Positions 21,153 to 54,991 are shown, counted from the stretch's first letter. The stretch: 64,000 nt of DNA from Escherichia phage vB_EcoM_G17 (MK327931.1); one strand, 5' to 3'. Program-made: numbers and translations. Notes: generated by a model from the sequence alone, not told the origin.

Positions 21153-21154
21153 AA

Positions 21155-37675: not shown

Positions 37676-38148
37676 AAACCATTTTTCTCCAGGTACTCAA
37701 TAATACAATCGAGATTGTTCAGGTCCAAGTAGAAATGATCACTATCTGAATTTAGTTCATTTTTAAGGGCAGTGTAAATCACTGAACTGAAAACAATCCT
37801 CTCTGGATACACAGTACTGTACTGGAAGAACTCTTCTTCAGTGTTAATTTCAGCCGTATCAAATCCTTCATTTATAAGATGATGATTGTAGTATTTGAAA
37901 TTATCTGAACTTGGGAAATGGTATGAAATAAAATCACCACTTGGTACTTCATCAAGCACTCTAATACTACAAGTTGATTCATCTGAACTATAGAGTAACC
38001 CATCCATAAAGGAAAGGTATCCATTTCGTTTTTTGACTGTATGTTTGCCTACGGAAAAATCTTCAGTAACATTTGTAAGGAATTTATAAACCCTGATAAT
38101 GTCTTTTGCTATTTTTTGTGCATTGCTAAATGATAGGTCTTTGGACAT
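37672..38148 (-). CDS. FQxS-family paralogue
   Basis: 158 aa; 'EEEFFQYSTVY'. Confidence 0.55.
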   Translation of the reverse strand: MSKDLSFSNAQKIAKDIIRVYKFLTNVTEDFSVGKHTVKKRNGYLSFMDGLLYSSDESTCSIRVLDEVPSGDFISYHFPSSDNFKYYNHHLINEGFDTAEINTEEEFFQYSTVYPERIVFSSVIYTALKNELNSDSDHFYLDLNNLDCIIEYLEKNGL

Positions 38149-38207
38149 TGTGATATAACCCTTTACAATTAATATAAAGAGATTATATCACAAAGAATCG
38201 GAGGGTG

Positions 38208-38792
38208 TCAAGATGGGTTGCGAAGTTCTACCATTTCTTTCCAAACTAATTGGTAATCTTCTAAGTCCAGATAGAAGTCTTCATTCCAGTGCTCATGAAA
38301 GTACTTATACATGAATAGAACTCCTAAATCGTATGCAGGAAACAATAATGATAGTTGAAAGTAGTATTCCTGATTTAAAACTATATCAATAAACTCTAAT
38401 GTACGTATGCCACCTTTCGATGAACGTATCTCAATGTGTGAGGTATCCTTCATACTGTAACACATGAAACCACCTCTAAATTCTGGATCATATTCACATT
38501 CGAACTGCTCACTGTTGTTATAGAAATCTCTCCCACTTTCTTGATCTTTCGGTCTACGTACTGATACATGAATATTTTTATCACGGTACATTGAACGATT
38601 TAGTATTTTCAAACATTTGAACTTATCTTCTTTAATGAACTTGATAATATCAATTATATCTTGTGCTGTACTGATAGCTGATTCGAATGTATCCAACTTA
38701 AGATGATTATATTGGGTTCCAGAGTTCATTTTTTTATCTAACATATAAACCTCATAATTCATACATTTTTGATTTGAACTGCATATGACCAC
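38208..38792 (-). CDS. FQxS-family paralogue
   Basis: 194 aa; 'QEYYFQLSLLF'. Confidence 0.55.
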   Translation of the reverse strand: MVICSSNQKCMNYEVYMLDKKMNSGTQYNHLKLDTFESAISTAQDIIDIIKFIKEDKFKCLKILNRSMYRDKNIHVSVRRPKDQESGRDFYNNSEQFECEYDPEFRGGFMCYSMKDTSHIEIRSSKGGIRTLEFIDIVLNQEYYFQLSLLFPAYDLGVLFMYKYFHEHWNEDFYLDLEDYQLVWKEMVELRNPS

Positions 38793-39093
38793 CTATTTCA
38801 CATGGATAACAATTCATAATTTTGTTCAATAGAATCTGGTATTTTTTAATAACTTCTATATCAATTTTTATATTACTATTAAAAACTAATGATTCTTGAA
38901 ATAATTCCCCCTCGTCAAGTGAAGTAAAATCATTTATCTTCAAGGGTATATTGTTGCATCGCAAGGAGAATGTATTTTCATCACGAATTAAAGTATAGAA
39001 ATCATTATGTTTTTTATTATAATCAAATTTAACAAGTAGTAGTTTAATATGAGTAGCGTACATTACTTTAACTAATTCAGATTCACGTCGCAT
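38752..39093 (-). CDS. FQxS-family paralogue
   Basis: 113 aa; 'EGELFQESLVF'. Confidence 0.55.
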   Translation of the reverse strand: MRRESELVKVMYATHIKLLLVKFDYNKKHNDFYTLIRDENTFSLRCNNIPLKINDFTSLDEGELFQESLVFNSNIKIDIEVIKKYQILLNKIMNCYPCEIGGHMQFKSKMYEL

Positions 39094-39515
39094 ACAATAC
39101 CTCTCTTATGATGCAAACATTCTTGCATAATGTGTTGTATTTTTCGTAACAGAAACACATCCAGTTCATTAAAAACAGTACTGTACTGGAACATCTCTTC
39201 TTCCCCGTACTCAGTTAAATCATCAATTTCATCTCTAGAAACAGCTACAATATTAAAACCACGTGTACTACAATAACCCTTAGTAAGATAATATATGTAC
39301 TTGTACTCTCCGTTGATATCTAAGAGATCTTGTGTGATACAGAAGCTTTTGGGTGACAGTTTATCATCAGGAACCATATGCCTTGCTTGTACATAGCAAC
39401 GGATACCATCACCTATACTATATGTAATAACTTCAAATTCAATCTTCATAGGTGAATATAATCCTTTTATATTGCTCAGGTGCAGTACTGAAACGTTTGA
39501 TTGGATAATTATCAA
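39072..39515 (-). CDS. FQxS-family paralogue
   Basis: 147 aa; 'EEEMFQYSTVF'; start may be the internal Met (MKIEFE). Confidence 0.5.
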   Translation of the reverse strand: MIIIQSNVSVLHLSNIKGLYSPMKIEFEVITYSIGDGIRCYVQARHMVPDDKLSPKSFCITQDLLDINGEYKYIYYLTKGYCSTRGFNIVAVSRDEIDDLTEYGEEEMFQYSTVFNELDVFLLRKIQHIMQECLHHKRGIVCDVNLN

Positions 39516-39801
39516 AGATTCTTTTCATTTCTTTCTGGATTAAACATAAGAAATCAAAGTTACAATCGTACTTATTATCCCATACTAAACTTTCTTGGAA
39601 TAACTCATCCTCTTGCATTAGTGTAGTGTCAATTACATCTTCACGGACATAGCTATATACTTCATAGCTCTTGAAGCCATCTTCTGATAATTCTAATTCA
39701 TATGCAGCCATATCAAACATATCATCATGGTTTGTCTTCAAAGATATTAAACAAGTAACTAATTTTTTAGTTGTATAGTATGTAATACTTAATGTGTTCA
39801 T
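39439..39801 (-). CDS. FQxS-family paralogue
   Basis: 120 aa; 'EDELFQESLVW'. Confidence 0.55.
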   Translation of the reverse strand: MNTLSITYYTTKKLVTCLISLKTNHDDMFDMAAYELELSEDGFKSYEVYSYVREDVIDTTLMQEDELFQESLVWDNKYDCNFDFLCLIQKEMKRIFDNYPIKRFSTAPEQYKRIIFTYED

Positions 39802-39806
39802 TTGTT

Positions 39807-40409
39807 TTATACCTCAGTATATAGCTTACAATAGCTTTCATCGAAATTACAAACACTTCTCAAGTACTGACACAGGTCATTGAAAATATTTACATTTGAT
39901 ATATATACATTATCAAATTCTGTTCGTTGAAAGAATGTATACATAGAATTTGTAATATATCGCATTGCATCTTCACGTCCCATAGTTATATCATTTGTGA
40001 ACATTGCATCTTCATCAGTACTGATGTGTTCTATTTTAAATGATTTCATAAATGGAATACTCTTTCCTAGGGCATAACCATCACCATATGATGCTTCTAC
40101 TGCACCTTTAGAATAAAGGAATTGATATAAGTCCGAATCACGATTATAAAAAGTACGACATACGGAGGAACATAATTTATTATCTATATGAAATAAAAAT
40201 CTTTTAGCATTTTTGTCTAATACTATTCGCAATGCATCACTCTCTAGAAATATATCACCATCAAGCATAAATGAGAACTGTACTAATGCTTTTTCTAAAT
40301 CCGCTCGTTTGTGATAAATCATTTCCTGCATATATATAATATCATTTGCTAATTTCTTAAAAAACAAATGCACATCTGCACTACAACATTTATTTGCATT
40401 TATTGACAT
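39807..40409 (-). CDS. hypothetical protein (200 aa)
   Basis: Minus-strand ORF in the array; motif not evident. Confidence 0.5.
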   Translation of the reverse strand: MSINANKCCSADVHLFFKKLANDIIYMQEMIYHKRADLEKALVQFSFMLDGDIFLESDALRIVLDKNAKRFLFHIDNKLCSSVCRTFYNRDSDLYQFLYSKGAVEASYGDGYALGKSIPFMKSFKIEHISTDEDAMFTNDITMGREDAMRYITNSMYTFFQRTEFDNVYISNVNIFNDLCQYLRSVCNFDESYCKLYTEV

Positions 40410-40960
40410 AATAGTTCCTTATACATATGATGTACTTTACAAATCTCATTATAGTATTTCATATCAATGTCATTTGTATTAAAAACGGAAACAGACAATA
40501 CTGCTAACTTATCAATTAAGTAATTATTATCGGCGTACTGTTTTAACTTATTGAACATATAGATGCATTTTATACTTAATTCATCATGCAACACACTGTT
40601 CTGAAAAATATTCTCTTCAGTATTAGGAGATAAGTAATCTTCAATTATATACGATAAACTACTATCGCAATCTTTATAGATTGAAATTGATGGATGTAAT
40701 GTGTCATACATTACACTAAACAGATCACCGTCATATGTGGATATTAAACTATTATTGGAAACAGTAGGATGATAATATTTCAGTACTGAAAACTTTGAAC
40801 AATCAGTGCAGTAAAAATGATCCATCCCTCGACGACTTTCGTATGAGAATAGTTTACTTGTATATTCAATCCCTTTGGTGCGACGGATTGTTTCATGCAT
40901 TTCTGCACATTGCATTAAAATTACCATACGTTCAAACGCAAGATCTAAATCATCGTACAT
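40400..40960 (-). CDS. FQxS-family paralogue
   Basis: 186 aa; 'EENIFQNSVLH'. Confidence 0.55.
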   Translation of the reverse strand: MYDDLDLAFERMVILMQCAEMHETIRRTKGIEYTSKLFSYESRRGMDHFYCTDCSKFSVLKYYHPTVSNNSLISTYDGDLFSVMYDTLHPSISIYKDCDSSLSYIIEDYLSPNTEENIFQNSVLHDELSIKCIYMFNKLKQYADNNYLIDKLAVLSVSVFNTNDIDMKYYNEICKVHHMYKELLCQ

Positions 40961-41141
40961 AACGGATATCCTTCTTCAACGAATTAATATATTCCAAAAT
41001 AACTTGTTCCTGATATTGGGTTCCCAAGTACATCAGTACTTTCAACTCTTTGAATTCAGTACTATATGAGTCTGTTTGCATCATTCTAGTAGAATATATA
41101 TTGAATAGTTTAGCAATATCATCTTGGTCTATTATTTTCAT
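40950..41141 (-). CDS. LGTNYQE-family small protein (copy embedded in the FQxS array)
   Basis: 63 aa; 'MYLGTQYQEQ'. Confidence 0.5.
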   Translation of the reverse strand: MKIIDQDDIAKLFNIYSTRMMQTDSYSTEFKELKVLMYLGTQYQEQVILEYINSLKKDIRYVR

Positions 41142-41337
41142 TAACCCTCTTCTGTATTAGTTCCTGTAAGTGCTGAATATAACCCTTCATTGCAACATCC
41201 TGTTTGTTAGAGCCAACGAAGAACAAGAGCTTAAAGTCATGGTAATCCATTTTTGGTTTAGTAGTGAACCATATGTCCCACACTGCACTCACAGTTCTCA
41301 TGTATTCAATTCGATTAAATGTTTTTGAATACTTCAT
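41119..41337 (-). CDS. LGTNYQE-family small protein (divergent, embedded copy)
   Basis: 72 aa; 'FFVGSNKQDV'. Confidence 0.45.
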   Translation of the reverse strand: MKYSKTFNRIEYMRTVSAVWDIWFTTKPKMDYHDFKLLFFVGSNKQDVAMKGYIQHLQELIQKRVNENNRPR

Positions 41338-41851
41338 CGATGTTCATTGCCAATAAGTTAATATACAAATTACTGTTAAATGCTATCTGCAATTCCATAT
41401 AGAACTGAATGATTGCATAGTCAGGGTCAGTACACGATAGTTGAAAACACTGTTCGTCGAATGCATTGTAATTGTACTTAGGGATGTGAATTTCACGCTT
41501 CAAATCAGGTTGCCCCCACTTCATCGCGTACACACCAATGTTATTGTTCTTTTTCCTTTTCTTAAATGTTAATTGTTGAATATTTCCTGCGTTATCCAGG
41601 AAAATAGAATTATTCGACACAGGTGCACCAATAGAAAACAATGATGTATCAATTACGTGTTTCTCACGTACATCACACTTCTGAAATGCACCTGTACCCT
41701 GTAATACACGATGAAAATTGTACTTCTCATTAACAACAGTACTAGGATCAATTAAACCAGTACTGCATTTTTTGAGTACTGGTACGATGATACGAATCTT
41801 TTTTGATAAATCTTGTAATGCATCAAAGTCATTGATGTTAACTTTCATCAC
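41315..41851 (-). CDS. FQxS-family paralogue
   Basis: 178 aa; 'DEQCFQLSCTD'. Confidence 0.5.
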   Translation of the reverse strand: MMKVNINDFDALQDLSKKIRIIVPVLKKCSTGLIDPSTVVNEKYNFHRVLQGTGAFQKCDVREKHVIDTSLFSIGAPVSNNSIFLDNAGNIQQLTFKKRKKNNNIGVYAMKWGQPDLKREIHIPKYNYNAFDEQCFQLSCTDPDYAIIQFYMELQIAFNSNLYINLLAMNIDEVFKNI

Positions 41852-42297
41852 TCAAATGTGGCCTCTTCAGTAGTAACAAAATTGATTAGTGTATCCAGTT
41901 CAGCAGTGTCAAGATAAAATACATCCAGTACTGATTTCTGATATATTACACTGAATGTGCATAGATTGTCAAGCGTTCCTTGTTCATAAACAGTACTACC
42001 CTGGAAGTACCCTTCTTCAGTACTCAGGGATAAAATGTCTGAAATTTTAAAAGATTCTTCAGTCGCATGTCTTTCTATATTAACTAAATGTCCGTTTCGG
42101 TTCAATGAAATATAATCGTATGCTAACTCAATTAGACTATAATTATCCGCATTAGTGTCAAATAAAGCGACAATTTTTCGTCTCAATCTCTCATCGTGAT
42201 CATGGTTTTCATCAGCTAAGTATTCAGGATTTTCTTTGAAGAACTGAACAACTTTTAGAATATCATTTGCTTTCTTGATTGCACTTTCGTAACTCAT
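41848..42297 (-). CDS. FQxS-family paralogue
   Basis: 149 aa; 'EEGYFQGSTVY'. Confidence 0.55.
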   Translation of the reverse strand: MSYESAIKKANDILKVVQFFKENPEYLADENHDHDERLRRKIVALFDTNADNYSLIELAYDYISLNRNGHLVNIERHATEESFKISDILSLSTEEGYFQGSTVYEQGTLDNLCTFSVIYQKSVLDVFYLDTAELDTLINFVTTEEATFE

Positions 42298-42602
42298 AAT
42301 AATTCAACCACTCCATCTCTAAAGTACATATAACTACCACCATTGGATACCTTGAATTCTATTGTCCCCAATAATATATTATATTTTTTTATTTCACATG
42401 TAGTACTGGTAGTGTAAGGCTCACCATCTCCTAAGTACATTGACATATGACATAGAACTTTTCTACCTGCATATTTCTCTTCAAACGATTGTTCAAAACT
42501 ATGCATAATTTGATTTAAAGCTGAAATGTAATTAATAAAGTCAGGTATTTCTGTCAATGAATTATAAACCGTACAAAGTGAATCAAATTCATTTTTAGTC
42601 AT
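42294..42602 (-). CDS. small protein, KYxGKxV-like family (embedded in the FQxS array)
   Basis: 102 aa; 'EKYAGRKVLCH'. Confidence 0.45.
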   Translation of the reverse strand: MTKNEFDSLCTVYNSLTEIPDFINYISALNQIMHSFEQSFEEKYAGRKVLCHMSMYLGDGEPYTTSTTCEIKKYNILLGTIEFKVSNGGSYMYFRDGVVELL

Positions 42603-42916
42603 TATATTTCTATCTCAATGTAATCCTGTGTGATTAAGTAATCCCAATGATACTTCACCTGCTTTTGTAATTCAATTAACGTAAAGAAGTTGATCGATTT
42701 ATCCCATACGAGCGATTCCTGGAAAATAAATGATTCATGTTCATCGTAATAATCACACTCTAAAAAATCAGGTATATATTCACTATCGTGAATGTATTCA
42801 ACAAACGAACTAGCTTGGCATTTCTTTACTACTAGTAATAATGAATTATCATGATCAAACAGATACAATAAACTAATTTCACCAGGGACGTACTGAACAC
42901 TGAATAAGTTTTTCAT
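42602..42916 (-). CDS. FQxS-family paralogue
   Basis: 104 aa; 'ESFIFQESLVW'. Confidence 0.55.
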   Translation of the reverse strand: MKNLFSVQYVPGEISLLYLFDHDNSLLLVVKKCQASSFVEYIHDSEYIPDFLECDYYDEHESFIFQESLVWDKSINFFTLIELQKQVKYHWDYLITQDYIEIEI

Positions 42917-43365
42917 TCTATACCTTCTGGATCTTTACGAAGTTCTTCGAAATCCAAATAAAATCGAGGACAGTTAACACTCTTTAAGTACCACATAATA
43001 ACTAATGCTTCAAGTACTTCATCATCGTAAACAGTACTGTTTTGGAAGTAATACTCTTCACTATCCCACGGACCATCCAGTACTTCATAATTCAAAATTA
43101 ATGGTTTTTTGCGATTAATAAAACGAATGCTACCATTTTCAACATAACTAATAAATTCTGCATCTCTATTGTATTCAGAAAACGATATAGGACTATTGGA
43201 ATTCAACCCAAGAATAACCCTTACACCCACGGAGTTATTATACATTTCATCTTTGTAGTAGTTGCCGTTCTCGGCTTTGTACACTTCTTTGAACTTTCCT
43301 GCCTTTATATCGTCAAAGTATCCATGTAGTTCTTTTGCTTTTTCAAGAGCACTTTGTAATGACAT
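42913..43365 (-). CDS. FQxS-family paralogue (EEYYFQ subgroup)
   Basis: 150 aa; 'GPWDSEEYYFQNSTVYDDEVLEALVIMWYLKS'. Confidence 0.6.
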   Translation of the reverse strand: MSLQSALEKAKELHGYFDDIKAGKFKEVYKAENGNYYKDEMYNNSVGVRVILGLNSNSPISFSEYNRDAEFISYVENGSIRFINRKKPLILNYEVLDGPWDSEEYYFQNSTVYDDEVLEALVIMWYLKSVNCPRFYLDFEELRKDPEGIE

Positions 43366-43831
43366 TACCTTCTCCTACAGTATTCTCTACATATTCATAA
43401 TCAAAATAGAAACTACTGGAGTCAATACTTTTGAAATACCACATAATTACAATAACATCTAATTCTTCTTCATTGTACAACGTACTATTCTGGAAGTAAT
43501 ATTCTTCACTATCCCACGGTCCTTCCAGTACTGAATAAGGAATGATAGTGTCATCAGCATCACTATCTGTGTTGTAGATGGTAATATCTTCATTACGGCA
43601 ATAACTAATGTACTGATTGTACATATGATATTCACAGTTATCACTGTCACCAGTATCAGTGTGCAGTACTAATGTTTCTGCACATATCTCGGACTCGTCA
43701 TAATCGTCACGGTCTTTTACAAAAAATTCAGTATCAGATGTTTTATATACACCTGGTACTGAACCTTCCTGTACCATAATCATGTACTCATGAATCTTCT
43801 TTGCTTCTTTCAATGCACTTTGTAATGACAT
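43343..43831 (-). CDS. FQxS-family paralogue (EEYYFQ subgroup)
   Basis: 162 aa; 'GPWDSEEYYFQNSTLYNEEELDVIVIMWYFKS'. Confidence 0.6.
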   Translation of the reverse strand: MSLQSALKEAKKIHEYMIMVQEGSVPGVYKTSDTEFFVKDRDDYDESEICAETLVLHTDTGDSDNCEYHMYNQYISYCRNEDITIYNTDSDADDTIIPYSVLEGPWDSEEYYFQNSTLYNEEELDVIVIMWYFKSIDSSSFYFDYEYVENTVGEGNVITKCS

Positions 43832-44274
43832 TACAAATCCCCTGTACTTAAATATTCACATGCTCCCCAGTCAAGAAAGAATGGTTCAAAATTCAATTCC
43901 TTAAAGTACCACAACACAACCAAGGAATCAAGAATTTCTTGGTTAAAAATGAGACTCTGTTGGAAGTAATACTCTTCAGTACCCCACGGGCCATCAAGTA
44001 CCCCGAAGTCAACAGGTGTATTTGTTGTGTCAAAAGTAATCTTAGTACCTGGAATATATACAAAAAAATTAGTATATTGACTACATGAAGAGTACTGTAT
44101 AGTATTGTCTTTATCCTGTCCCATAAGTAAAATATCATCAGAGTATGTCTTTATACCTGATAGATAATACTCATCACCAAATGCACTTACTTTATCACCA
44201 TAGAACCCACTTTTTATGTTATCGTGGAAGTGATGTATTCTGTGTGCTAGTTCAAGTGCACTTGCTAAACTCAT
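43831..44274 (-). CDS. FQxS-family paralogue (EEYYFQ subgroup)
   Basis: 147 aa; 'GPWGTEEYYFQQSLIFNQEILDSLVVLWYFKE'. Confidence 0.6.
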   Translation of the reverse strand: MSLASALELAHRIHHFHDNIKSGFYGDKVSAFGDEYYLSGIKTYSDDILLMGQDKDNTIQYSSCSQYTNFFVYIPGTKITFDTTNTPVDFGVLDGPWGTEEYYFQQSLIFNQEILDSLVVLWYFKELNFEPFFLDWGACEYLSTGDL

Positions 44275-44741
44275 ATATCCTCTTTAATAACTCGTAGTAG
44301 ATCCAAGTCCAAATAGAAGCTAGGACAATCTGTATTATTAAAGTACCACAGAATGACAAGCTTGTCAAGTACATCTTCCTCGTAGATAGTATTCTGCTGG
44401 AAGTAGTACTCTTCACTTCCCCAGTCATTATCCAGTACTGAATACGGAAGATGTTTCTCTGCTGCACCAGATATAATGTCAGAATCTTGTATTAAAATAT
44501 CAGCATCACGACAGAAGTACATGTAATTATCTTCCAAATTAACATCACACCCATTGAGTGTTGTTTCAGAAGAATCTAAGTTTTCTTCATACATGTGAAT
44601 GTACTCACTACTGTCATCGTATCTCATTCGACAATATGATTTACCTTCCTTGAATAGATATCCATTAAGACAATTTGCTACAATTTCTTTGCTGCATAAA
44701 TCAATTAACTTCGCAATCTCTAATGCTCTTTCTAAACTCAT
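44271..44741 (-). CDS. FQxS-family paralogue (EEYYFQ subgroup)
   Basis: 156 aa; 'NDWGSEEYYFQQNTIYEEDVLDKLVILWYFNN'. Confidence 0.6.
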   Translation of the reverse strand: MSLERALEIAKLIDLCSKEIVANCLNGYLFKEGKSYCRMRYDDSSEYIHMYEENLDSSETTLNGCDVNLEDNYMYFCRDADILIQDSDIISGAAEKHLPYSVLDNDWGSEEYYFQQNTIYEEDVLDKLVILWYFNNTDCPSFYLDLDLLRVIKEDI

Positions 44742-44742
44742 T

Positions 44743-45234
44743 TCAACCCCTGTTAATACCGTTATCTACAGTTTTCTTTACGTATTTGTAATCGAAATAG
44801 AAGTTCCCAGAACCAATACTTTTAAAGTACCACATAATTATAATAACATCAAGTACTTCATTATCATATACAGTACTTTGTTGGAAGTAATACTCTTCAC
44901 TATCCCACGGACCTTCCAGTACTTCACTCGGAATTATAATGTCATTGGAATCGCTGTCAGTACTGTTGATGGTATCTGTATCATTAATATAGACCATGTA
45001 CTCATTATGCATATTAATGAAGCATTCATAATCATTAGGGTCGGTATCTAGTATGCACGTTTCTGTATCCAGTACGCACGTTTCTGTATCTGAGCAGTCA
45101 TTATAAAGGAGGTTATCCGGTACATAATATTGAGTACTTGTGTCTTTGAAAACACCGTAAACTGAACCTTCTTTTGCCATATTCATGTACTCATGAATCT
45201 TCTTTGCTTTTTCCAATGAACTCTGTAATGTCAT
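44743..45234 (-). CDS. FQxS-family paralogue (EEYYFQ subgroup)
   Basis: 163 aa; 'GPWDSEEYYFQQSTVYDNEVLDVIIIMWYFKS'. Confidence 0.6.
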   Translation of the reverse strand: MTLQSSLEKAKKIHEYMNMAKEGSVYGVFKDTSTQYYVPDNLLYNDCSDTETCVLDTETCILDTDPNDYECFINMHNEYMVYINDTDTINSTDSDSNDIIIPSEVLEGPWDSEEYYFQQSTVYDNEVLDVIIIMWYFKSIGSGNFYFDYKYVKKTVDNGINRG

Positions 45235-45243
45235 TTTATAATC

Positions 45244-45603
45244 TCATATATTGAAATAATAATTATTCGTTCTTGATGGGGATGGATTAAATACGTTTTC
45301 TTTTTCAAATCTCTTCATTTCATTTTGCAAAGAAACCATTTCTTCAAATGTACAGGAGTACTTATTCTTATCAAACACTAATGCAGCCTGAAATAGTTCC
45401 CCATCGTCCAGTACTGTATAATCTATAAGACTCTCAGATTCATAGTCATAGTCGTCATGTGATACATGAATAAATTTAAAACAAGAATCTTTGTAATGCA
45501 TATATAAACTCAACTCATGTTCCGAGTCGCCCTTAATAAGATTACAGCACAAGTCCCATCCTTTAGGTAACTTATAATAGTACATAGAATAATCATATGT
45601 CAT
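45244..45603 (-). CDS. FQxS-family paralogue (short subgroup)
   Basis: 119 aa; 'YTVLDDGELFQAALVFDKNKYSCTFEEMVSLQNEMK'. Confidence 0.6.
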   Translation of the reverse strand: MTYDYSMYYYKLPKGWDLCCNLIKGDSEHELSLYMHYKDSCFKFIHVSHDDYDYESESLIDYTVLDDGELFQAALVFDKNKYSCTFEEMVSLQNEMKRFEKENVFNPSPSRTNNYYFNI

Positions 45604-45956
45604 TCTTGAATTCCTAAATTGAATTTGTATTCTTGATTAATACTTGCATTGGGTTTATGCAAAGCAGCATACTCTTTCATTTCATTTTGTATTGCAATAA
45701 CTTCTTCAAATGTACACAAGTACTTCTTATCAAATACTAATGATTCTTGGAATAGTTCTGCGGTATCCATTAATGTATAGTCCGGCATATCTTGGTGTGG
45801 ATACTGTAATGAACTGTAATCAATGAATGTAAATTTACCCTGAGTGTAATGAATATACTCATTTGCACTGTGCATTAAATCACCTTTGTTTAAATTACAA
45901 AAGTACTGATAACTGTGCTTGAAAGTATGTACTGATATTAAAAAATCAAATTCCAT
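45600..45956 (-). CDS. FQxS-family paralogue (short subgroup)
   Basis: 118 aa; 'DTAELFQESLVFDKKYLCTFEEVIAIQNEMK'. Confidence 0.6.
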   Translation of the reverse strand: MEFDFLISVHTFKHSYQYFCNLNKGDLMHSANEYIHYTQGKFTFIDYSSLQYPHQDMPDYTLMDTAELFQESLVFDKKYLCTFEEVIAIQNEMKEYAALHKPNASINQEYKFNLGIQE

Positions 45957-45959
45957 CAG
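45878..45959. repeat. 82-bp direct repeat, copy 1 (covers the 5' end of gene 45600..45956)
   Basis: Matches 46406..46487 with 2 mismatches by eye ('AAATCACCTTTGTTTAAATTACAAAAGTACTGATAACTGTGCTT...AAAAAATCAAATTCCATCA'). Confidence 0.7.
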
Positions 45960-46327
45960 TACTCAACCTCTACATAAATAGATTCAGGAAACTTAGTCAT
46001 ATAATCTTCTGGATAGTTCTGCATTACTTTGATCATTTCTGCCTGTGTAGCACGGACGTATTCAATTGGTGCTCCTGGTAAATTCCAGACAGTACTTTCC
46101 TGAAAGAATTCCTCTTCTGACAGTACTGTCAGATTTACAAAATCATTACGGTAATTTTTTGAATCATCATATGTGAAGATTTTAAAAGACCCATTTTCAT
46201 ATAGTACAAGAACAAAATGGGAGAATTTTTGTAATGCACCACCAAGGCTTTCCACGACCGCATGATTCAGTGTACAGATGACCTCTTTTTTCCTCATACC
46301 GAATTGAATTCTAATTTCTTTTTTCAT
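45956..46327 (-). CDS. FQxS-family paralogue
   Basis: 123 aa; 'LSEEEFFQESTVW'. Confidence 0.55.
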   Translation of the reverse strand: MKKEIRIQFGMRKKEVICTLNHAVVESLGGALQKFSHFVLVLYENGSFKIFTYDDSKNYRNDFVNLTVLSEEEFFQESTVWNLPGAPIEYVRATQAEMIKVMQNYPEDYMTKFPESIYVEVEY

Positions 46328-46329
46328 AA

Positions 46330-46490
46330 AATCTCCTTCAGATTAGTACTGAATTTGTACAGAATATTAGAACTGTATACAGCCTCTGTATCTGTATCCA
46401 TAATCAAATCACCTTTGTTTAAATTACAAAAGTACTGATAACTGTGCTTAAAAGAATGTACTGATATTAAAAAATCAAATTCCATCACAC
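46330..46490 (-). pseudogene. truncated duplicate of the 5' end of gene 45600..45956 (~53 codons)
   Basis: My translation: 'MEFDFLISVHSFKHSYQYFCNLNKGDL...' then diverges and stops; reproduces the N-terminus of the downstream paralogue; contains direct-repeat copy 2. Confidence 0.45.
46406..46487. repeat. 82-bp direct repeat, copy 2
   Basis: Near-identical to 45878..45959 (2 mismatches by eye), 528 bp apart. Confidence 0.7.
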
Positions 46491-46862
46491 TTCCCCTAGA
46501 TTGAAATGATTACAAAAATCATCTTCACCAGTACTGCACCAGATATCTATACATTCCCTGTGAATACATTTAATTCTACGCTGTAATTCAATCATCTCTT
46601 CTAATGTACAGATGTACTTCTTATCAAATACTAATGCCGCCTGAAACAGTGCAGCATCATCAAGTACTGTATAGTCCAACATCTCGGTTGCTTTACCCCT
46701 AAACCCAGTACTAAAATCCATCAAATAAAAGTCAGCATTCCAGTACTTTAAAATCTTGTCCCTAGCGTAGTTTAAATCACCCTTGTATAAGTTAGAGTGC
46801 GTAACTAACTCACCAGTGTACATCCATGTCCTTGCACAAAATTCATTATATTTTATTTCCAT
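46485..46862 (-). CDS. FQxS-family paralogue (short subgroup)
   Basis: Track ORF extends to 47048 through a low-complexity leader; probable start is Met 'MEIKYNEF' at 46862. 'LDDAALFQAALVFDKKYICTLEEMIELQ'. Confidence 0.55.
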   Translation of the reverse strand: MEIKYNEFCARTWMYTGELVTHSNLYKGDLNYARDKILKYWNADFYLMDFSTGFRGKATEMLDYTVLDDAALFQAALVFDKKYICTLEEMIELQRRIKCIHRECIDIWCSTGEDDFCNHFNLGEV

Positions 46863-47060
46863 CTTAATCTCTACTATAATTAATAAGGTAAACTCCAATA
46901 TAAGGAGAACGTTCGGCGGCGGGGTATTTTTTGTTTCAAGAAACATGAACTGTACTCTGAAAAACACAATATAAAACTTTATATTAAACATATACCTTAG
47001 CATGTTTTTCAGCGGAAATTTTTTTGACCCCCCCCTGCGGCCTGTCAAAATGAAACGTCT
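46863..47060. other. ~200-bp non-coding island with G/C-rich tracts
   Basis: 'GAACGTTCGGCGGCGGGG' and 'TTGACCCCCCCCTGCGGCC' in an AT-rich context; no credible ORF. Confidence 0.35.
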
Positions 47061-47285
47061 CTATTTATTCAGCCTAGAAACCTTGATTTCTTCAATCCTT
47101 TTCATTGCACAAAGCCTTCGACTCGTCCTCTCGTATATATTCAATACTCGCTGTAATGCATTATCTGTATTATCTGCAACTGCAATCTGAACCAAATATG
47201 TATCCTTCAAAATAGAATCCATCATGAATTCAAAACCTTTCACACTAAAGCAATATGCCACTTCCGGCTCTTCAAACGTAATCAT
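47061..47285 (-). CDS. small hypothetical protein (74 aa)
   Basis: Minus-strand ORF; 'DNALQRV' resembles the unlisted small ORF at 47465..47641. Confidence 0.45.
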   Translation of the reverse strand: MITFEEPEVAYCFSVKGFEFMMDSILKDTYLVQIAVADNTDNALQRVLNIYERTSRRLCAMKRIEEIKVSRLNK

Positions 47286-47502
47286 AATTCCAATCCCCTA
47301 TTCCCTCTAACCTTCTAAGATATCTTGCGTAAATTATTTCGAAATATCTGTGCAACGAAATTACGGATTGCTCATAATCATCATTCCTGTACATTGTGCA
47401 TGTCAGAAAATCATTTAACCCAAAATCTAAACTGCACTTGAACTTCTCCTTTGCAATATCACTATTACTTGCACTTTTCATAATAAACCCTTTGTACCGC
47501 AT
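47272..47502 (-). CDS. small hypothetical protein (76 aa)
   Basis: Minus-strand ORF; start uncertain. Confidence 0.4.
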   Translation of the reverse strand: MRYKGFIMKSASNSDIAKEKFKCSLDFGLNDFLTCTMYRNDDYEQSVISLHRYFEIIYARYLRRLEGIGDWNYDYV

Positions 47503-47663
47503 TGGTGTACTGTGAACTCAGCACCACTAATAGGTAATCTATATTGTAAGCACGATTTCCTCGTTGACTAGCACGGCTGGAATAAAGAATATTATCCACA
47601 TATGTATTGAACTGATCTTCAAATAACTCTTTCATCAGCATTATACCATCACATAATCATACA

Positions 47664-48287
47664 TCATACATTAACAACTTTATCGATGTAATCTTCTAAC
47701 ATATCAATATATCTGGTATTGGTTCTAACTAAAAGGTATGCAAATCCAGAAAACTCCTGTGTATAATGCTTTACAGCGTACATACAACGAAGCTTATCAT
47801 TGTCATACATTGTACTGTACTGAAACAAACTCTCGTCTGATAGCTCTAATAACGCTTGGGCTTCACTTCTCGTGAACTTCATAGGGTCATGTACTGCATC
47901 ACAAAAACAAACCTGTGTCTCGCTATTGAAACCCTGTGATAGATATATACCTTCACACTCTGAACGCACCGATACTGCATTATAACTATGTGTTGCCCCC
48001 ATCATATCTGAACTCAAAACTAAAATCAACCCATTTTTATTTTTAATCAACAAATCTGACTTAAGGGATTTGATCTCCGTATGGGAAATATCACCAAATC
48101 TTCCTGGGACTTCAAACTTATCAACGTTGTATACAATCTTTTGTACTTGCTCTTTTAAACGCTTAATTGCACTTCTGTCTTTTTCTAATGTATCTAATAA
48201 ACTCATTGAACTCATTGTACTTTCCTTACATATTTGTACCGAACAAAACGGAACTTTGAATGCCATTAATCGACACTTCATGTACAT
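47664..48287 (-). CDS. FQxS-family paralogue
   Basis: 207 aa; 'LSDESLFQYSTMY'. Confidence 0.55.
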   Translation of the reverse strand: MYMKCRLMAFKVPFCSVQICKESTMSSMSLLDTLEKDRSAIKRLKEQVQKIVYNVDKFEVPGRFGDISHTEIKSLKSDLLIKNKNGLILVLSSDMMGATHSYNAVSVRSECEGIYLSQGFNSETQVCFCDAVHDPMKFTRSEAQALLELSDESLFQYSTMYDNDKLRCMYAVKHYTQEFSGFAYLLVRTNTRYIDMLEDYIDKVVNV

Positions 48288-48570
48288 ATATATTTTGTCT
48301 GAACAAAGGAACTAATTGAACTAAACTCGTTTGCATAATAATATGCATATGTACATTGTCATATGCCGTTTCGTATTGGAATCGTGCAGCTTCATCTTCT
48401 ATGAAATTCGGAACTTGGACTGGATTCTCAAAATTTGTCCTTGTACTGAACTGTACATCATTGTCCTGTACCTTAATACCATATGAATTATCATTGTTAT
48501 CAACTACATCAAATTCAATTAAACTACCATCTTTACTGACGTTTACTATATAAACCGAAAATCGACTCAT
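48226..48570 (-). CDS. FQxS-family paralogue (divergent)
   Basis: 114 aa; 'EAARFQYETAY'. Confidence 0.5.
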   Translation of the reverse strand: MSRFSVYIVNVSKDGSLIEFDVVDNNDNSYGIKVQDNDVQFSTRTNFENPVQVPNFIEDEAARFQYETAYDNVHMHIIMQTSLVQLVPLFRQNIYVHEVSINGIQSSVLFGTNM

Positions 48571-49082
48571 AAACCTATTTCCTCTAAATCTTTGACAAAT
48601 GTATCATAATCCGATAATGACAAAAATATGTCTGTACTGATGTTTTGACGTAATGTATTAAACAAATTATGTACCTGTAATAAATCAGGTGCATAAATCA
48701 GGGATTGCTGGAAATACGATTCTTCTGTATCTAATATATCCCTGCACTCAATTTCACGAACTCGTTGGTATATTGAATTTAATAATACATTTTCATCTTT
48801 GAGCATTGGAAGGTATCGGATGTACATGTGCTCCATCAACTCATCCTGGATTGAACCCCTGAACTGCAACACGTATTCAAAACACATCACTACATCTTGT
48901 AGGTAATTGGCACTGTAATTATTGCTGTAAACAATCTTATGACTTCTGAACTCATCATCATTTCTGAACCAATTGTCACCTACTTTGGTGTACTTATGAC
49001 TAAGCTTCCCATCCTCCAACGCTCGAATGAACTTCATAATGTTAATTGCAAAATCATATGAATGATGCTTGTGTTGATGCAT
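48567..49082 (-). CDS. FQxS-family paralogue
   Basis: 171 aa; 'DTEESYFQQSLIY'. Confidence 0.55.
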   Translation of the reverse strand: MHQHKHHSYDFAINIMKFIRALEDGKLSHKYTKVGDNWFRNDDEFRSHKIVYSNNYSANYLQDVVMCFEYVLQFRGSIQDELMEHMYIRYLPMLKDENVLLNSIYQRVREIECRDILDTEESYFQQSLIYAPDLLQVHNLFNTLRQNISTDIFLSLSDYDTFVKDLEEIGL

Positions 49083-49090
49083 TTTTTACC

Positions 49091-49285
49091 TCAATTCTGT
49101 CCGAAAAAATAACCAAAATGTTTAAAGCAAGAAAGCATTACTATGTTCATCACTCTATCATCAAATTCATCTTGTGTTTCTGCACATAATGTTTCACAGA
49201 TATTCAAATGTAATAATTCAAGCTGGAAACTGTCGGTGAACCAATCAAACTTACGGTATTTTTGTTTAACATCAACTGTAAGCAT
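49091..49285 (-). CDS. small hypothetical protein (64 aa)
   Basis: Minus-strand ORF filling the gap between two paralogues. Confidence 0.4.
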   Translation of the reverse strand: MLTVDVKQKYRKFDWFTDSFQLELLHLNICETLCAETQDEFDDRVMNIVMLSCFKHFGYFFGQN

Positions 49286-49286
49286 A

Positions 49287-49910
49287 CTATATATCCAACC
49301 CTTTTACAACATCTACGAAATGTTCAAACACTTCTTTTGAAAAATAACCACCTTCACAAAAAAGCATACTAAACGGTGGCAGCATGTCCGATAACTCTTT
49401 AGCTAAATTGATTTCTGCTCTTAACTCTTGAACATCAATGATATCATGTACTAAAGATAATTGAAACATGAATGCATCTACATCTTCATTCATTTCTGAA
49501 TTGTAATATAACTCTTCAGGGAATTTGTCGGTTTCGTAATAATAAAAAACTTTATTGTTGAACACACCACTAATAGGAACATCATTTTCATCTTTCTTTG
49601 AAATGTTTGTTTCCCATGACTCTATATTATTAGGAACAAAAAAATCATAGGCTGATTTTGAACCCTGTACTGAATCCAACTTTATTCCATAATATTCCGT
49701 ATCCATGTATTTCTGCTGTAATGTAATACCACGTGTACTGACATTCACTTGGAATATATCATCTTTATCTGGAACACTAAATGGAATACATAACACTGAA
49801 TTCTCAGGGTATTTGGCAATGAATGCATCCAGCACTTTATTAAGCACCGGAATGGCAATTTTACTGTACTGCATCAAATCATACATTTTAATTCTGGTCA
49901 TATCATTCAC
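49287..49910 (-). CDS. FQxS-family paralogue
   Basis: 207 aa; 'VDAFMFQLSLVHD'. Confidence 0.55.
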   Translation of the reverse strand: MNDMTRIKMYDLMQYSKIAIPVLNKVLDAFIAKYPENSVLCIPFSVPDKDDIFQVNVSTRGITLQQKYMDTEYYGIKLDSVQGSKSAYDFFVPNNIESWETNISKKDENDVPISGVFNNKVFYYYETDKFPEELYYNSEMNEDVDAFMFQLSLVHDIIDVQELRAEINLAKELSDMLPPFSMLFCEGGYFSKEVFEHFVDVVKGLDI

Positions 49911-50442
49911 CTGTGTATGTTTTCACCCTTAGCGATTCAAAATCCCATACATCACTGATTGTACCATTGTGCCTGTAATCATAATATTCTACTAATACAT
50001 TATACAATAACTTCAACGATACAAATTCATGATTCCACGGAGCTTTATTGTCATGAACACATTTGGTGATATAAGGTATAATATATAAACTAAACAACAC
50101 TAATGGTGAATGTATACATTGCATTTGAAAATATTCTTCTTCTTGCATACAATGTTCAGGAATAATTAGATCATAATGTGTCTCAAATAAATGTAAACCT
50201 ATTGTGGTTTTTTTCGTATCACATGCGTACCATATTGTACTATCCGAAATAAATGGAATGATACCATTATTGTTTGCAATGTACATCATATGGTAAGAGC
50301 GATTTGTCTTGTTAAATATCTCGATACTTTCGATATTACTACAAATCATGTATTCAAGGCAATCAATGATCTTATCTTTAAATGTACCAATTTCATTGAA
50401 TGACATTGCTTTCTGTACTTTTGATACTGTTGTACTGCTCAT
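49903..50442 (-). CDS. FQxS-family paralogue
   Basis: 179 aa; 'QEEEYFQMQCIH'. Confidence 0.5.
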   Translation of the reverse strand: MSSTTVSKVQKAMSFNEIGTFKDKIIDCLEYMICSNIESIEIFNKTNRSYHMMYIANNNGIIPFISDSTIWYACDTKKTTIGLHLFETHYDLIIPEHCMQEEEYFQMQCIHSPLVLFSLYIIPYITKCVHDNKAPWNHEFVSLKLLYNVLVEYYDYRHNGTISDVWDFESLRVKTYTGE

Positions 50443-50981
50443 ATGTTCTCCTTAAAAAAATCCAAATACTCTTCATTGAAAGCATATGTATCATCTTTTA
50501 TGTTATGCACCACATAATCATAAAGAGCTATGAATGCAGGGATTATGATCTTACATGATTTATTATTGTATTTGTACTGCTCCAAATCAACGGTGTTCAA
50601 TTTAGCAATAAGCATAGCAGCAAAGATATCTTCATGGCGGTGTACTGTGCTGTACTGAAAATACTCATCCTCTCCAATATCGGGATGATATAACGGTATA
50701 ACCAAATTATTACGAATTGACATTTTATATTTTTGTAATGCAGCTAAATGCATGAACCACAATCTATCTTCATGGAAAGATGGAAAAATAATTTTGTCTG
50801 TGCTAATAAAAATTTCTTCATTTCGATTATTTGTCACAAGAGGTGCATACATTTTAATTTTTGCAGATTTAATAATTAAATTAAAAATATAATGAATCTT
50901 ATGAACTGCACTTGATGCATCTTCGTATGTACTTGGGATTATGAAACTCACTATATGTTCTCCTTTAAAATGAATACACAT
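50439..50981 (-). CDS. FQxS-family paralogue
   Basis: 180 aa; 'GEDEYFQYSTVH'. Confidence 0.55.
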   Translation of the reverse strand: MCIHFKGEHIVSFIIPSTYEDASSAVHKIHYIFNLIIKSAKIKMYAPLVTNNRNEEIFISTDKIIFPSFHEDRLWFMHLAALQKYKMSIRNNLVIPLYHPDIGEDEYFQYSTVHRHEDIFAAMLIAKLNTVDLEQYKYNNKSCKIIIPAFIALYDYVVHNIKDDTYAFNEEYLDFFKENI

Positions 50982-51011
50982 GATAACAGCTTTGGTCTTC
51001 TATGTCAATAC

Positions 51012-51056
51012 CAAAACGAAAAAAGCCCATATCTTACGATACAGGCGTTATGGGCA
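51012..51056 (-). terminator. rho-independent terminator overlapping the stop of gene 51034..51540
   Basis: Stem GCCCATA / TATGGGC (51025-51031 / 51049-51055), long loop; T-run follows on minus strand (plus 51017-51024). Confidence 0.45.
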
Positions 51057-51540
51057 TGTTGATTTGAATTTCATTGTACAAATCATCAATATATAGACAT
51101 GAAAAAAACACACTATCTTGTACTATATTGTTGTGATAAAGCATTTTAAATACTACATAAAAAAATAAATCAATATCATCGTGGACTAAATTCTGCTGGA
51201 ACCACCACTCGTCTGTTAAATCTTGTGCATTAAAATCATCAGGAACTTCAATGAACGACATATCACAATCTTCTTTGTACTCAAACCACATGTCGTCATT
51301 CGGATAACGTTCATGCTTCTCTGGGTAACAATTGCTGGGATTAAATGTTAAAATATTAAACCCCGTAGAGCAACGTTCTTTATTTAAAAATGTATTATTC
51401 CATACCTGATATTTTTCACCAACATCAAGCTCTTCTGTTACTGATTTTATTGCACATAATGTACTGTATATTGTTTCTATCTTGTGAACATATTTAAATG
51501 CAGCATCTAAGCTGAACTCTAAATCATACATGTACTGCAT
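51034..51540 (-). CDS. FQxS-family paralogue
   Basis: 168 aa; 'TDEWWFQQNLVHD'. Confidence 0.55.
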   Translation of the reverse strand: MQYMYDLEFSLDAAFKYVHKIETIYSTLCAIKSVTEELDVGEKYQVWNNTFLNKERCSTGFNILTFNPSNCYPEKHERYPNDDMWFEYKEDCDMSFIEVPDDFNAQDLTDEWWFQQNLVHDDIDLFFYVVFKMLYHNNIVQDSVFFSCLYIDDLYNEIQINMPITPVS

Positions 51541-51860
51541 AAAATTACCTCAACTAAAGCAAGAACTGTATTAAATTCAACTATACTTGTAATTCCTTGA
51601 AGGTACATGTACTTTGCTACTACATATTTCTGTACTAAATTATAATTATTAAATTCCTCAAAATTGTAATTTAGAACAAAATCTGTACTCAAAAATATCT
51701 TATGCATCTCTAATGCACTTTGATAATACGCGTACAACTCACGGATATCAATACTGGTTAAATTATATTGTTCATATCTATGATACGGGATGGCTTCAAT
51801 TTCAATACTATAAAACCATTCTCTTAACTTATTAATATCAAATGTATTATTCAGCTTCAT
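51519..51860 (-). CDS. hypothetical protein (113 aa)
   Basis: Minus-strand ORF in the array; motif not evident. Confidence 0.45.
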   Translation of the reverse strand: MKLNNTFDINKLREWFYSIEIEAIPYHRYEQYNLTSIDIRELYAYYQSALEMHKIFLSTDFVLNYNFEEFNNYNLVQKYVVAKYMYLQGITSIVEFNTVLALVEVILCSTCMI

Positions 51861-53434: not shown

Positions 53435-53582
53435 TAATGTTCTTCTCTTAAAAATCGTTTGATAGCATAATCTAAATAAAATTCATAACACATGCTATCT
53501 CTGTTCTTTATCCATATTTTGTAATCGGATTTTATATTACGCAACAAATAATTTGTATTAATTGTGTAATAATCTAATCGCC

Positions 53583-54932: not shown

Positions 54933-54991
54933 AATTTTTACCCTATGATTAACGTTAGTGTACTATATCAGTAATGAAAAGTACTGTCAAG

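What the first reader, a model, noticed from the sequence alone, without database searches (positions are those of the whole stretch)
42913..46862. Most recently duplicated subclusters inside the array
Five consecutive genes (42913-45234) share a long, nearly identical C-terminal block ('GPWDSEEYYFQNSTVYDDEVLEALVIMWYLKS' and variants) and begin with the same 'MSLQSALEKAKELH/MSLASALELAHRIH' helix, yet differ in their central regions. The next four (45244-46862) form a shorter subgroup ('VLDDGELFQAALVFDKNKYSCTFEEM...'). High similarity at both ends with variable middles suggests recent duplication plus localised diversification.
Basis: seen in the sequence. Interest (0 to 1): 0.6.

Follow-up and report, generated by a model that had tools for sequence, protein, structure and literature searches.

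The report
Old paralogue subclusters in jumbo-phage gene array
These genes are the least-diverged members of a 40-copy family of small acidic proteins of unknown function found only in RaK2/121Q-type jumbo phages, but their duplications are ancient rather than recent, and the family is kept by selection and reshuffled between phage strains.

Summary
The window is an Asteriusvirus jumbo coliphage (121Q/PBECO4 group), with all genes on the minus strand.

**Subclusters.** Five genes (42913-45234) form one subfamily (phrog_9317, 29-56% amino-acid identity, against 15-30% background). Only three of the "next four" (45244, 45600, 46485) form the second. Gene 45956 is an outlier, and a 53-aa relic ORF (46324-46485) was missed.

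**Age.**
- They are the most similar members of a family of at least 41 copies marked by an invariant Phe-Gln.
- They are not recent. Synonymous sites are near saturation in every pair.
- The 4-5-copy subcluster is present in all 35 phage records that match, all of them Asteriusvirus-type.
- RaK2 carries at least 30 family members.

**Selection.** Orthologue dN/dS is 0.09-0.52. The variable middle is relaxed (0.11-0.44), not positively selected.

**Recent change.**
- An 85-nt repeat, 96% identical, flanks a 529-bp cassette that is present in some strains only.
- Gene-by-gene allele mosaicism is seen among 13 relatives.

**Function.** Unknown. My inference is a diversified set of non-virion host-interaction binders.

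The parts
42913..43365 (-). Long-form paralogue 1 (150 aa, pI 4.66), phrog_9317. Modelled structure: N-terminal helix, seven β-strands, the FQ helix, a long helix and a terminal strand.
43343..43831 (-). Long-form paralogue 2 (162 aa, net charge -26). Its closest relative is 44743 (56-58% amino-acid identity).
43831..44274 (-). Long-form paralogue 3 (147 aa).
44271..44741 (-). Long-form paralogue 4 (156 aa, net charge -21).
44743..45234 (-). Long-form paralogue 5 (163 aa). It is absent from 5 of 13 relatives, where a 61-aa ORF plus a fourth short-form paralogue take its place. It carries an internal 21-nt tandem duplication at 45041-45082.
45244..45603 (-). Short-form paralogue 1 (119 aa), phrog_15629. 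The model has five strands, the FQ helix, a long helix and a terminal strand, with no N-terminal helix.
45600..45956 (-). Short-form paralogue 2 (118 aa), phrog_15629. Its first 28 codons are duplicated at 46403-46487.
45956..46327 (-). Family member of a different subfamily (123 aa, phrog_13866). It is part of a 529-bp cassette found in only 4 of 13 relatives.
46324..46485 (-). Relic ORF (53 aa). It combines the 28-aa N-terminus of a 45600-like paralogue with unrelated residues. The 121Q version (74 aa) still holds 'EFQNS'; here a further 63-bp deletion has removed it.
46485..46862 (-). Short-form paralogue 3 (125 aa), phrog_15629. The start at 46862 agrees with the phAPEC6 and PBECO4 annotations.
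45874..45958 (.). Copy 1 of the 85-nt direct repeat (96% identical to copy 2). This is the one truly recent duplication in the interval.
   Evidence: (D9)
46403..46487 (.). Copy 2 of the 85-nt direct repeat. Together the two copies bracket the 529-bp cassette that is present in some strains only.
15342..55706 (-). Extent of the whole Phe-Gln family in the window: at least 41 members by HMM, interspersed with other small genes. Consensus motif: D-Φ-x-x-L-[TS]-E-E-x-[YLF]-F-Q-x-S-[LT]-[VIL]-[YHWF]-D.

Best explanation
**Shown**
- The interval holds two old subfamilies of a large tandem multigene family. I call it the FQ family, for its invariant Phe-Gln.
- The family is specific to RaK2/121Q-type jumbo phages, with at least 41 copies in this window.
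- The genes encode small (about 100-200 aa), soluble, mostly acidic proteins.
- No family member appears in the published phAPEC6 virion proteome.
- The subclusters are the youngest surviving duplications in the family, but they predate the divergence of Asteriusvirus.
- Every copy examined is under purifying selection, strongest on the FQ block.
- The array turns over by birth and death and by exchange of whole-gene cassettes or alleles between related phages. Evidence is the relic ORF, the gene replaced in 5 of 13 strains, and the 529-bp cassette bracketed by an 85-nt repeat.

**Inferred from the models**
- The conserved N-terminal helix, the FQ helix and the long C-terminal helix form one layer packed on an antiparallel β-sheet.
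- The variable 'middle' is that sheet.

**Inferred function (about 0.35)**
- The family is a diversified repertoire of early, intracellular binders of host proteins, serving host takeover or counter-defence.
- A constant helical scaffold, possibly a shared partner site around E-E-x-x-F-Q-x-S, carries a variable β-sheet recognition surface.
- Copy number and alleles are shuffled between strains as hosts differ.

Confidence in the evolutionary and structural description is about 0.85. The overall figure given blends the two.
For: **Identity of the phage**
- The interval matches SHEFM2K and Sharanji at 100%, and 121Q, PBECO4 and phAPEC6 at 93-99%.

**Family size and motif**
- define the family in the window.
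- All 186 retrieved sequences contain FQ, including one evident false positive, P0147.

**Restricted distribution**
- Only 159 clusters at 50% identity reach E ≤ 1e-3 among 1.84 billion proteins.
- Word-indexed hits all come from roughly 350-kb phage contigs.
- RaK2 has at least 30 members in 40 kb.
- Foldseek against BFVD finds only RaK2, GAP32, 121Q, SP27, fHe-Yen9-04 and Serratia BF proteins.

**Age**
- Synonymous sites are near saturation.
- There are 4-5 copies in nearly all of the 35 matching phage records.

**Selection**
- Orthologue dN/dS is 0.09-0.52, with the C block lowest.

**Turnover**
- The presence/absence and allele matrix shows it.
- So do the 85-nt repeat and the relic ORF.
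- A replacement by a short-form paralogue is seen.

**Structure**
- The two models have pLDDT 90.7 and 87.6, and pTM 0.85 and 0.83.

**Protein properties**
- The proteins are acidic and lack transmembrane segments.
- None is in the phAPEC6 virion proteome table.

**Promoters**
- σ70-like and extended -10 sequences lie in intergenic gaps of the same strand.
Against: - There is no experimental or homology-based evidence for any function. Pfam, PADLOC, PDB sequence and PDB fold searches are all empty or weak.
- No expression data for this phage group were found.
- The generic promoter scan of 40-50 kb is not enriched over shuffles.
- I could not inspect model coordinates. 'Exposed variable sheet face' and 'buried Phe' are deductions from secondary structure only.
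- A constellation of conserved polar residues (E, E, Q, S, D) could equally mark a catalytic or ligand site rather than a scaffold.
- dN/dS was a pooled pairwise Nei-Gojobori estimate on recombining sequences. It would miss positive selection acting on a few sites.
Confidence: 0.55

Rival explanations
1. One reading: recent tandem duplication, followed by positive diversifying selection focused on the central region.
For: - Neighbours are more alike than distant members.
- The middles are far more divergent than the ends.
- dN/dS is usually higher in the middle than in the C block.
Against: - pS is 0.55-0.90 in all pairs, and the best pair is only 70% identical in nucleotides.
- The same 4-5 copies exist in nearly all of the 35 matching phage records.
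- dN/dS in the middle is 0.11-0.44, well below 1.
Confidence: 0.08
2. Concerted evolution. The conserved N- and C-terminal blocks look alike mainly because gene conversion or unequal recombination between paralogues keeps homogenising them. The middles escape this or are swapped as cassettes. The unit of exchange runs from the 3' block of one gene into the 5' block of the next.
For: - Within the five genes, synonymous codons at identical residues are shared far more often than codon usage predicts, but only in the conserved blocks. The figures are 70% against 46% expected in the C block, 61% against 40% in the N helix, and 49% against 48% in the middle.
- Minor codons (TAC, TTC, CTG, GAG) are shared by 4-5 of the five genes.
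- The family as a whole shows no codon preference at the invariant Phe: 21 TTT to 20 TTC.
- The 85-nt, 96%-identical repeat shows that recombination does occur at 5' ends of genes.
- A comparable offset 'unit of evolution' has been reported for a bacterial tandem paralogue cluster (PMC2568036; abstract seen).
Against: - pS in the C block is still 0.53-0.55, so any conversion is old or patchy.
- The roughly 20-aa tail between the C block and the next gene's N helix is not conserved (28% identity), so the conserved unit is not contiguous.
- Identical residues in the poorly alignable middle may be chance matches, which alone would push codon sharing to the random level.
- The low orthologue dN/dS of the C block shows protein-level constraint regardless of conversion.
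Confidence: 0.2
3. The family is a set of small enzymes or ligand-binding 'sponges'. The invariant E-E…F-Q-x-S…D constellation would be a shared active or ligand site, not a scaffold.
For: - F-Q is invariant in all 186 retrieved sequences, at 10-20% overall identity (one of them, P0147, is a false positive).
- The flanking polar residues are strongly conserved: E 130/184, E 132/184 and S 153/184.
Against: - No match to any enzyme or sponge family by sequence or fold at significant level.
- [ST]-E-E at the start of a predicted helix is what a helix N-cap looks like (interpretation from general knowledge).
- Forty paralogues with one identical site and different surfaces are hard to explain if there is a single ligand.
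Confidence: 0.1
4. The genes are neutral filler: duplicated DNA that merely pads a head-full genome, with decaying copies.
For: - Tandem duplication was proposed as a route to jumbo genome expansion, and an array of more than 30 similar genes was noted in 121Q (PMC5646251).
- One relic ORF exists.
- Gene presence varies between strains.
Against: - The ORFs are intact in 13 genomes, with dN/dS 0.09-0.52.
- The family is retained with at least 30 copies in the distant RaK2.
- The predicted folds are confident.
Confidence: 0.04
5. The E-x-x-Y-F-Q-x-S motif is a proteolytic processing site, resembling the TEV (ENLYFQ/S) or 3C (LFQ/G) sites. The proteins would be substrates, for example packaged internal proteins.
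For: - Superficial motif resemblance (my recollection of the TEV and 3C sites, which is a lead only).
- The window encodes a ClpP-family protease at 1120-1815.
Against: - The residue after Gln is variable (Y, N, Q, L, E, F). Ser sits two positions after Gln, not immediately after it.
- The motif lies inside a confidently predicted helix.
- No family member is in the phAPEC6 virion proteome.
- ClpP is not a Gln-specific endoprotease (general knowledge).
- No 3C-like protease was seen in the window (searches covered only some proteins).
Confidence: 0.03

Closest known systems
Tandem gene arrays noted in jumbo phages 121Q and G (Hua et al. 2017, PMC5646251; repeated for phAPEC6 in PMC7247149)
   Same: Same genomes and same phenomenon. 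Dozens of tandem paralogous small genes were read as products of tandem duplication.
   Different: [quoted passage not shown]
- They may refer to the other array in this window, the 30 tiny genes at 55.7-62.1 kb, rather than to the FQ family.
PHROG families phrog_9317, phrog_15629, phrog_13866 and phrog_12674 (all 'unknown function')
   Same: The nine genes match these profiles over their full length, at E 1e-41 to 1e-66.
   Different: PHROGs splits into separate, unannotated families what is shown here to be one superfamily. That superfamily has a common invariant FQ core and a common fold.
Hyperplastic regions of T4-like phages, multigene families of large eukaryotic DNA viruses (ASFV MGF360/505) and poxvirus 'gene accordions'. 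Comparison from general knowledge, not tested here.
   Same: - Blocks of small, non-structural, strain-variable genes.
- Copy number and alleles differ between close relatives.
- In the well-studied cases, the genes modulate host interaction or host range.
   Different: - No sequence or fold relationship.
- The copies here are ancient and individually conserved, not a recent amplification of one gene.
- A host-interaction role is only inferred.
β-sheet-plus-helix binding platforms: polo-box domain, p32/gC1qBP/Mam33, RNA polymerase β lobe, and the ATP-grasp subdomain of rifampin phosphotransferase
   Different: - This is topological resemblance, not demonstrated homology.

Membership tests
phrog_9317 (PHROGs v4, unknown function) | Full-length match to the family profile | tested here: met
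   All five genes 42913-45234 match at E 2e-55 to 9e-66 and cover the profile almost from end to end, positions 1 to 155-158 of 160.
   Genes 45244, 45600 and 46485 match at E 3e-56 to 8e-60. Gene 45956 matches only at E 0.0035 and belongs to phrog_13866 (E 2e-41). Its pairwise identity to the other three is 21-25%.
FQ superfamily (defined here) | Invariant Phe-Gln within [ST]-E-E-x-Φ-F-Q-x-S-[LT]-Φ-Φ-D, followed by a long helix and a terminal strand | tested here: met
   All nine full-length genes have it. The relic ORF 46324-46485 lacks it. Both AlphaFold models place the motif in a helix.
Recent tandem duplicates | Near-identical nucleotide sequence, unsaturated synonymous divergence and lineage-restricted copies | tested here: not met
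   The best pair has 70% nucleotide identity and pS 0.61; the others have pS 0.55-0.90. There are 4-5 copies in nearly all of the 35 matching phage records. Only the 85-nt repeat (96% identity) qualifies.
Genes under diversifying selection | dN/dS > 1 in the variable region among orthologues | tested here: not met
   dN/dS in the middle region is 0.11-0.44 for all nine genes. The method was pooled pairwise Nei-Gojobori, and site-level tests were not run.
TEV/3C-type protease cleavage site | Gln at P1, followed directly by Ser or Gly, in an exposed extended segment | tested here: not met
   The residue after Gln is variable (Y 46, N 25, Q 24, L 18, …). Ser is at the next position, in 153 of 184 sequences. 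The motif lies in a predicted helix with pLDDT above 90.
Virion or internal head proteins | Detection in the purified-virion proteome | tested here: not met
   The phAPEC6 orthologues are gp438c-gp447c. Text searches of the phAPEC6 paper, including its virion proteome table, found no gp36x-gp47x entry.
Any curated protein family or known defence or anti-defence fold | Significant match in Pfam, PADLOC, PDB sequences or PDB folds | tested here: not met
   - Pfam gives no hit above the curated thresholds.
- PADLOC gives none at E < 0.01.
- The PDB profile search gives a best E of 0.3.
- NCBIfam and an anti-defence-specific library were not searched.

The most novel reading that the evidence does not exclude
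The FQ family is a previously undescribed protein fold, expanded to 30-45 copies per genome in all RaK2/121Q-type jumbo phages. This amounts to about 6% of the genome, by my own estimate of roughly 40 genes of about 0.5 kb in a 350-kb genome. It would work as a combinatorial repertoire of host-factor or defence-system inhibitors. A constant helical module built around the invariant Phe-Gln would engage one shared partner. A hypervariable β-sheet face would select different targets. Strains would exchange cassettes to track host diversity, making this a phage counterpart of the multigene families of large eukaryotic DNA viruses.
Probability: 0.25. Interest if true: 0.7.

Novelty: new member of a known kind. 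Interest (0 to 1): 0.42.

Why it matters
- RaK2/121Q-type phages spend tens of kilobases on one gene family that nobody has characterised.
- This work shows that the copies are ancient and individually kept by selection. They are confined to this phage clade and confidently predicted to fold into a structure with no solved counterpart.
- That turns 'hypothetical filler' into a defined target for functional work: 40 variants of one scaffold, with natural presence/absence variation between therapeutic phage candidates.
- If the family governs host takeover or defence evasion, it would help explain host-range differences among these phages.
- For the scan itself, the lesson is that similarity between neighbours in such arrays marks the least ancient duplications, not recent ones.

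Tried and rejected
It is uninformative because synonymous sites are saturated. I replaced it with orthologue dN/dS from 13 genomes.
2. **A physical genome end or direct terminal repeat boundary inside the interval.** The Sharanji record ends at window position 46449. However, its two ends overlap by 77 bp (window 46373-46449) at 100% identity, so the record is an arbitrarily opened circular assembly. The idea was dropped.
3. **Protease-site reading of E-x-x-Y-F-Q-x-S.** Rejected on the position of Ser, the helical context and absence from the virion proteome.
4. **Nucleotide-level selection on the FQ codons.** Rejected: 21 TTT to 20 TTC across the family, which fits background usage (p = 0.26).
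5. **Generic σ70 promoter and terminator scan of 40-50 kb.** Counts are no better than in shuffles. No tRNA genes and no Rfam family were found.
6. **Foldseek against afdb50.** The library was unavailable.
8. **Literature searches for a function or for transcriptomics of this phage group.** They found only passing remarks on tandem arrays.
9. **P0147, a 348-aa hit at E 6e-5.** It is an unrelated repeat protein. Hits near E 1e-4 therefore include false positives.


Full report
**Source and setting**
- The 3.95-kb interval is 100% identical to Escherichia phages SHEFM2K and Sharanji. It is 93-99% identical to 121Q, PBECO4, phAPEC6 and other Asteriusvirus jumbo phages of about 350 kb. Thirty-five phage records match, all from E. 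coli or Salmonella hosts.
- Nearly all long ORFs in the 64-kb window lie on the minus strand. GC content is 30-35%.
- The few genes with recognisable domains lie at the low-coordinate end:
  - ClpP, 1120-1815
  - DNA ligase, 3493-4911
  - polynucleotide kinase/phosphatase, 11223-12155
  - RNA ligase 1, 13252-14394
  - two metallophosphoesterases
- The rest is small ORFs, tightly packed or overlapping.

**Check of the observation**
- The nine ORFs exist as described.
- All-against-all BLAST and an HMM built from the hits show one large family with at least 41 members between 15.3 and 55.7 kb. The only invariant residues are a Phe-Gln pair.
- Within that family, the five genes 42913-45234 are 29-56% identical to each other, against a background of 15-30%.
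- Those five share an N-terminal helix and a roughly 45-residue C-terminal block. All five match phrog_9317.
- At DNA level a 145-nt block recurs five times at 66-77% identity.
- Neighbour similarity in the array is significant only because of this interval: permutation p = 0.017 with it, 0.68 without it.
- Two corrections are needed:
  - The C block is 61% identical on average, not 'nearly identical'.
  - The second subgroup has three members, 45244, 45600 and 46485 (36-40% identity, phrog_15629). Gene 45956 is an outlier at 21-25% identity and matches phrog_13866.
- A 53-aa ORF at 46324-46485 was overlooked.

**How old are the duplications?**
- Codon alignments of all paralogue pairs give pS 0.55-0.90. 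Even the closest pair (43343/44743; 58% amino-acid and 70% nucleotide identity) has pS 0.61.
- A tblastn search with the 42913 protein finds 4-5 copies in nearly all of the 35 matching phage records. Two of the three most distant ones, whose best copy is only 36-39% identical, show only two places.
- The family HMM finds at least 30 members with the same motif in a 40-kb stretch of Klebsiella phage RaK2, a member of Alcyoneusvirus.
- The subclusters are therefore the least ancient duplications of an old expansion. They are not recent.

**Selection**
- I extracted orthologues from 13 related genomes and computed pooled pairwise Nei-Gojobori estimates.
- Whole-gene dN/dS is 0.09-0.52.
- The C block is the most constrained, at 0.05-0.37. 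The middle is at 0.11-0.44.
- The variable middle is relaxed but not under detectable positive selection. The genes are clearly maintained.

**What is really recent**
- The orthologue matrix is mosaic:
  - Gene 42913 comes in two allele classes, 92-100% and 68-69% identical, which do not track the other genes.
  - Gene 44743 is absent from 5 of 13 genomes. There it is replaced by a 61-aa ORF plus a fourth short-form paralogue.
  - Gene 42294 is absent from 7 of 13 genomes.
- Gene 45956 and the 53-aa ORF form a 529-bp cassette present in 4 of the 13 relatives.
- That cassette is bracketed by an 85-nt direct repeat, 96% identical (45874-45958 and 46403-46487). The repeat encodes the first 28 residues of the 45600 protein.
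- The 121Q version of the small ORF is 74 aa and still carries 'EFQNS'. In the window a further 63-bp deletion removed it. It is a decaying family member.
- In UE-S1, the orthologues of 46485 and 45600 are annotated as one in-frame 243-aa fusion.
- Together these point to birth-and-death turnover and cassette exchange by recombination within the array.

**A hint of concerted evolution**
- Among the five long genes, identical residues use the same codon more often than codon usage predicts, but only in the conserved blocks:

| Region | Same codon observed | Expected |
|---|---|---|
| C block | 70% | 46% |
| N helix | 61% | 40% |
| Middle | 49% | 48% |

- Minor codons are shared at invariant positions. 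The family as a whole shows no preference at the invariant Phe.
- This may be residual common ancestry, or old gene conversion limited to the conserved ends. It may also partly reflect chance alignment in the middle. I could not separate these.

**Structure**
- AlphaFold2 with paralogue and orthologue alignments gives confident models.
- The long form (42913, 150 aa) has pLDDT 90.7 and pTM 0.85. Its elements in order are helix 3-21, seven strands (28-91), a short helix, the FQ helix 103-110, helix 115-129 and strand 135-138.
- The short form (45244, 119 aa) has pLDDT 87.6 and pTM 0.83. It has five strands, the FQ helix 67-76, helix 86-103 and a terminal strand, and lacks the N-terminal helix.
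- Foldseek against viral models returns only uncharacterised proteins of RaK2-like and related jumbo phages.

**Distribution and annotation**
- A full HMMER scan of 1.84 billion representative proteins finds only 159 clusters at E ≤ 1e-3. All but one are 65-215 aa, and all contain FQ. The exception, P0147, is a false positive.
- The consensus motif is D-Φ-x-x-L-[TS]-E-E-x-[YLF]-F-Q-x-S-[LT]-[VIL]-[YHWF]-D.
- Pfam, PADLOC and PDB sequence searches give nothing.
- The 'amidohydrolase 3' label on the phAPEC6 orthologue of 46485 has no support.
- The proteins are acidic, with a median pI of 4.9. The five long ones have pI 4.05-4.66 and net charge -10 to -26. None has a membrane segment.
- None appears in the phAPEC6 virion proteome.
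- The literature only notes that 121Q and phAPEC6 contain tandem arrays of related genes.

**Interpretation**
- What is shown: an ancient, clade-restricted tandem family that is selectively maintained. It encodes small, soluble, acidic, non-virion proteins with a confidently predicted fold that has no convincing solved counterpart. It evolves by birth and death and by exchange of cassettes between strains.
- What is inferred: the proteins act inside the infected cell as a diversified set of binders for host takeover or counter-defence. The helices would be a constant module and the sheet the variable recognition surface.
- This rests on analogy with strain-variable accessory regions of other large viruses and on the weak resemblance to binding platforms. 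I put it at about one in three.
- Rivals are concerted evolution as the main cause of the conserved ends, a shared catalytic or ligand site, neutral filler, and a protease site. Each is weighed in its own section.

**Verdict**
- 'Recent duplication plus localised diversification' is not the right reading.
- The array itself is known in outline but uncharacterised. Interest is moderate.

Noticed in passing
window 55696-62082 (also 40950-41337 and 53941-54207): A second, unrelated tandem family of about 30 tiny genes (63-90 aa) with an 'LGT-x-x-QE' motif. Median identity is 27% and the best pair is 55% identical. [quoted passage not shown]
   Followed up: partly
window 1120-1815 (-): A phage-encoded ClpP-family protease (PF00574, E 4e-41), separate from the T4-type prohead protease annotated elsewhere in these genomes. 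Its role is unknown.
   Followed up: no
window 11223-12155 and 13252-14394 (-): A polynucleotide kinase/phosphatase and a T4-type RNA ligase 1. Together they form the classic tRNA-repair pair that counters anticodon nucleases. A DNA ligase lies at 3493-4911.
   Followed up: no
window 38149-38207, 25098-25169, 9493-9591, 54933-54991, 31008-31068 (minus-strand sense): Intergenic gaps carry extended -10-like 'TGTGATATAAT' or TTGACA…TATAAT-like sequences. These are candidate host-σ70 promoters heading blocks of the array.
   Followed up: partly
window 45041-45082 (inside gene 44743-45234): A 21-nt tandem duplication (86% identical) encodes the repeated peptide 'TETCVLD/TETCILD' in the variable middle of the protein.
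   Followed up: no
window 46373-46449: The Sharanji GenBank record starts and ends here with a 77-bp overlap at 100% identity. This is an arbitrarily opened circular assembly, not a physical genome terminus.
   Followed up: yes
L007 (phage UE-S1) 4169-4897: The orthologues of 46485 and 45600 are joined in frame into one 243-aa two-domain protein ('…NLGERVMEFDF…'). This is either a real fusion of two family members or a sequencing error.
   Followed up: partly
L005 (phAPEC6) 5573-5950: The orthologue of 46485-46862 is annotated 'amidohydrolase 3'. Neither Pfam nor any other search supports this label.
   Followed up: yes
window 46300-48300: SHEFM2K, phAPEC6 and ECO103 4-12-1 span about 420 bp more than the window across this stretch, with the match split in two pieces. 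This is a further indel polymorphism just upstream of the interval.
   Followed up: no
window 42294-42602 (-): This 102-aa gene, not detected as a family member, is missing from 7 of 13 relatives. A 444-450-bp gene sits in its place there.
   Followed up: partly
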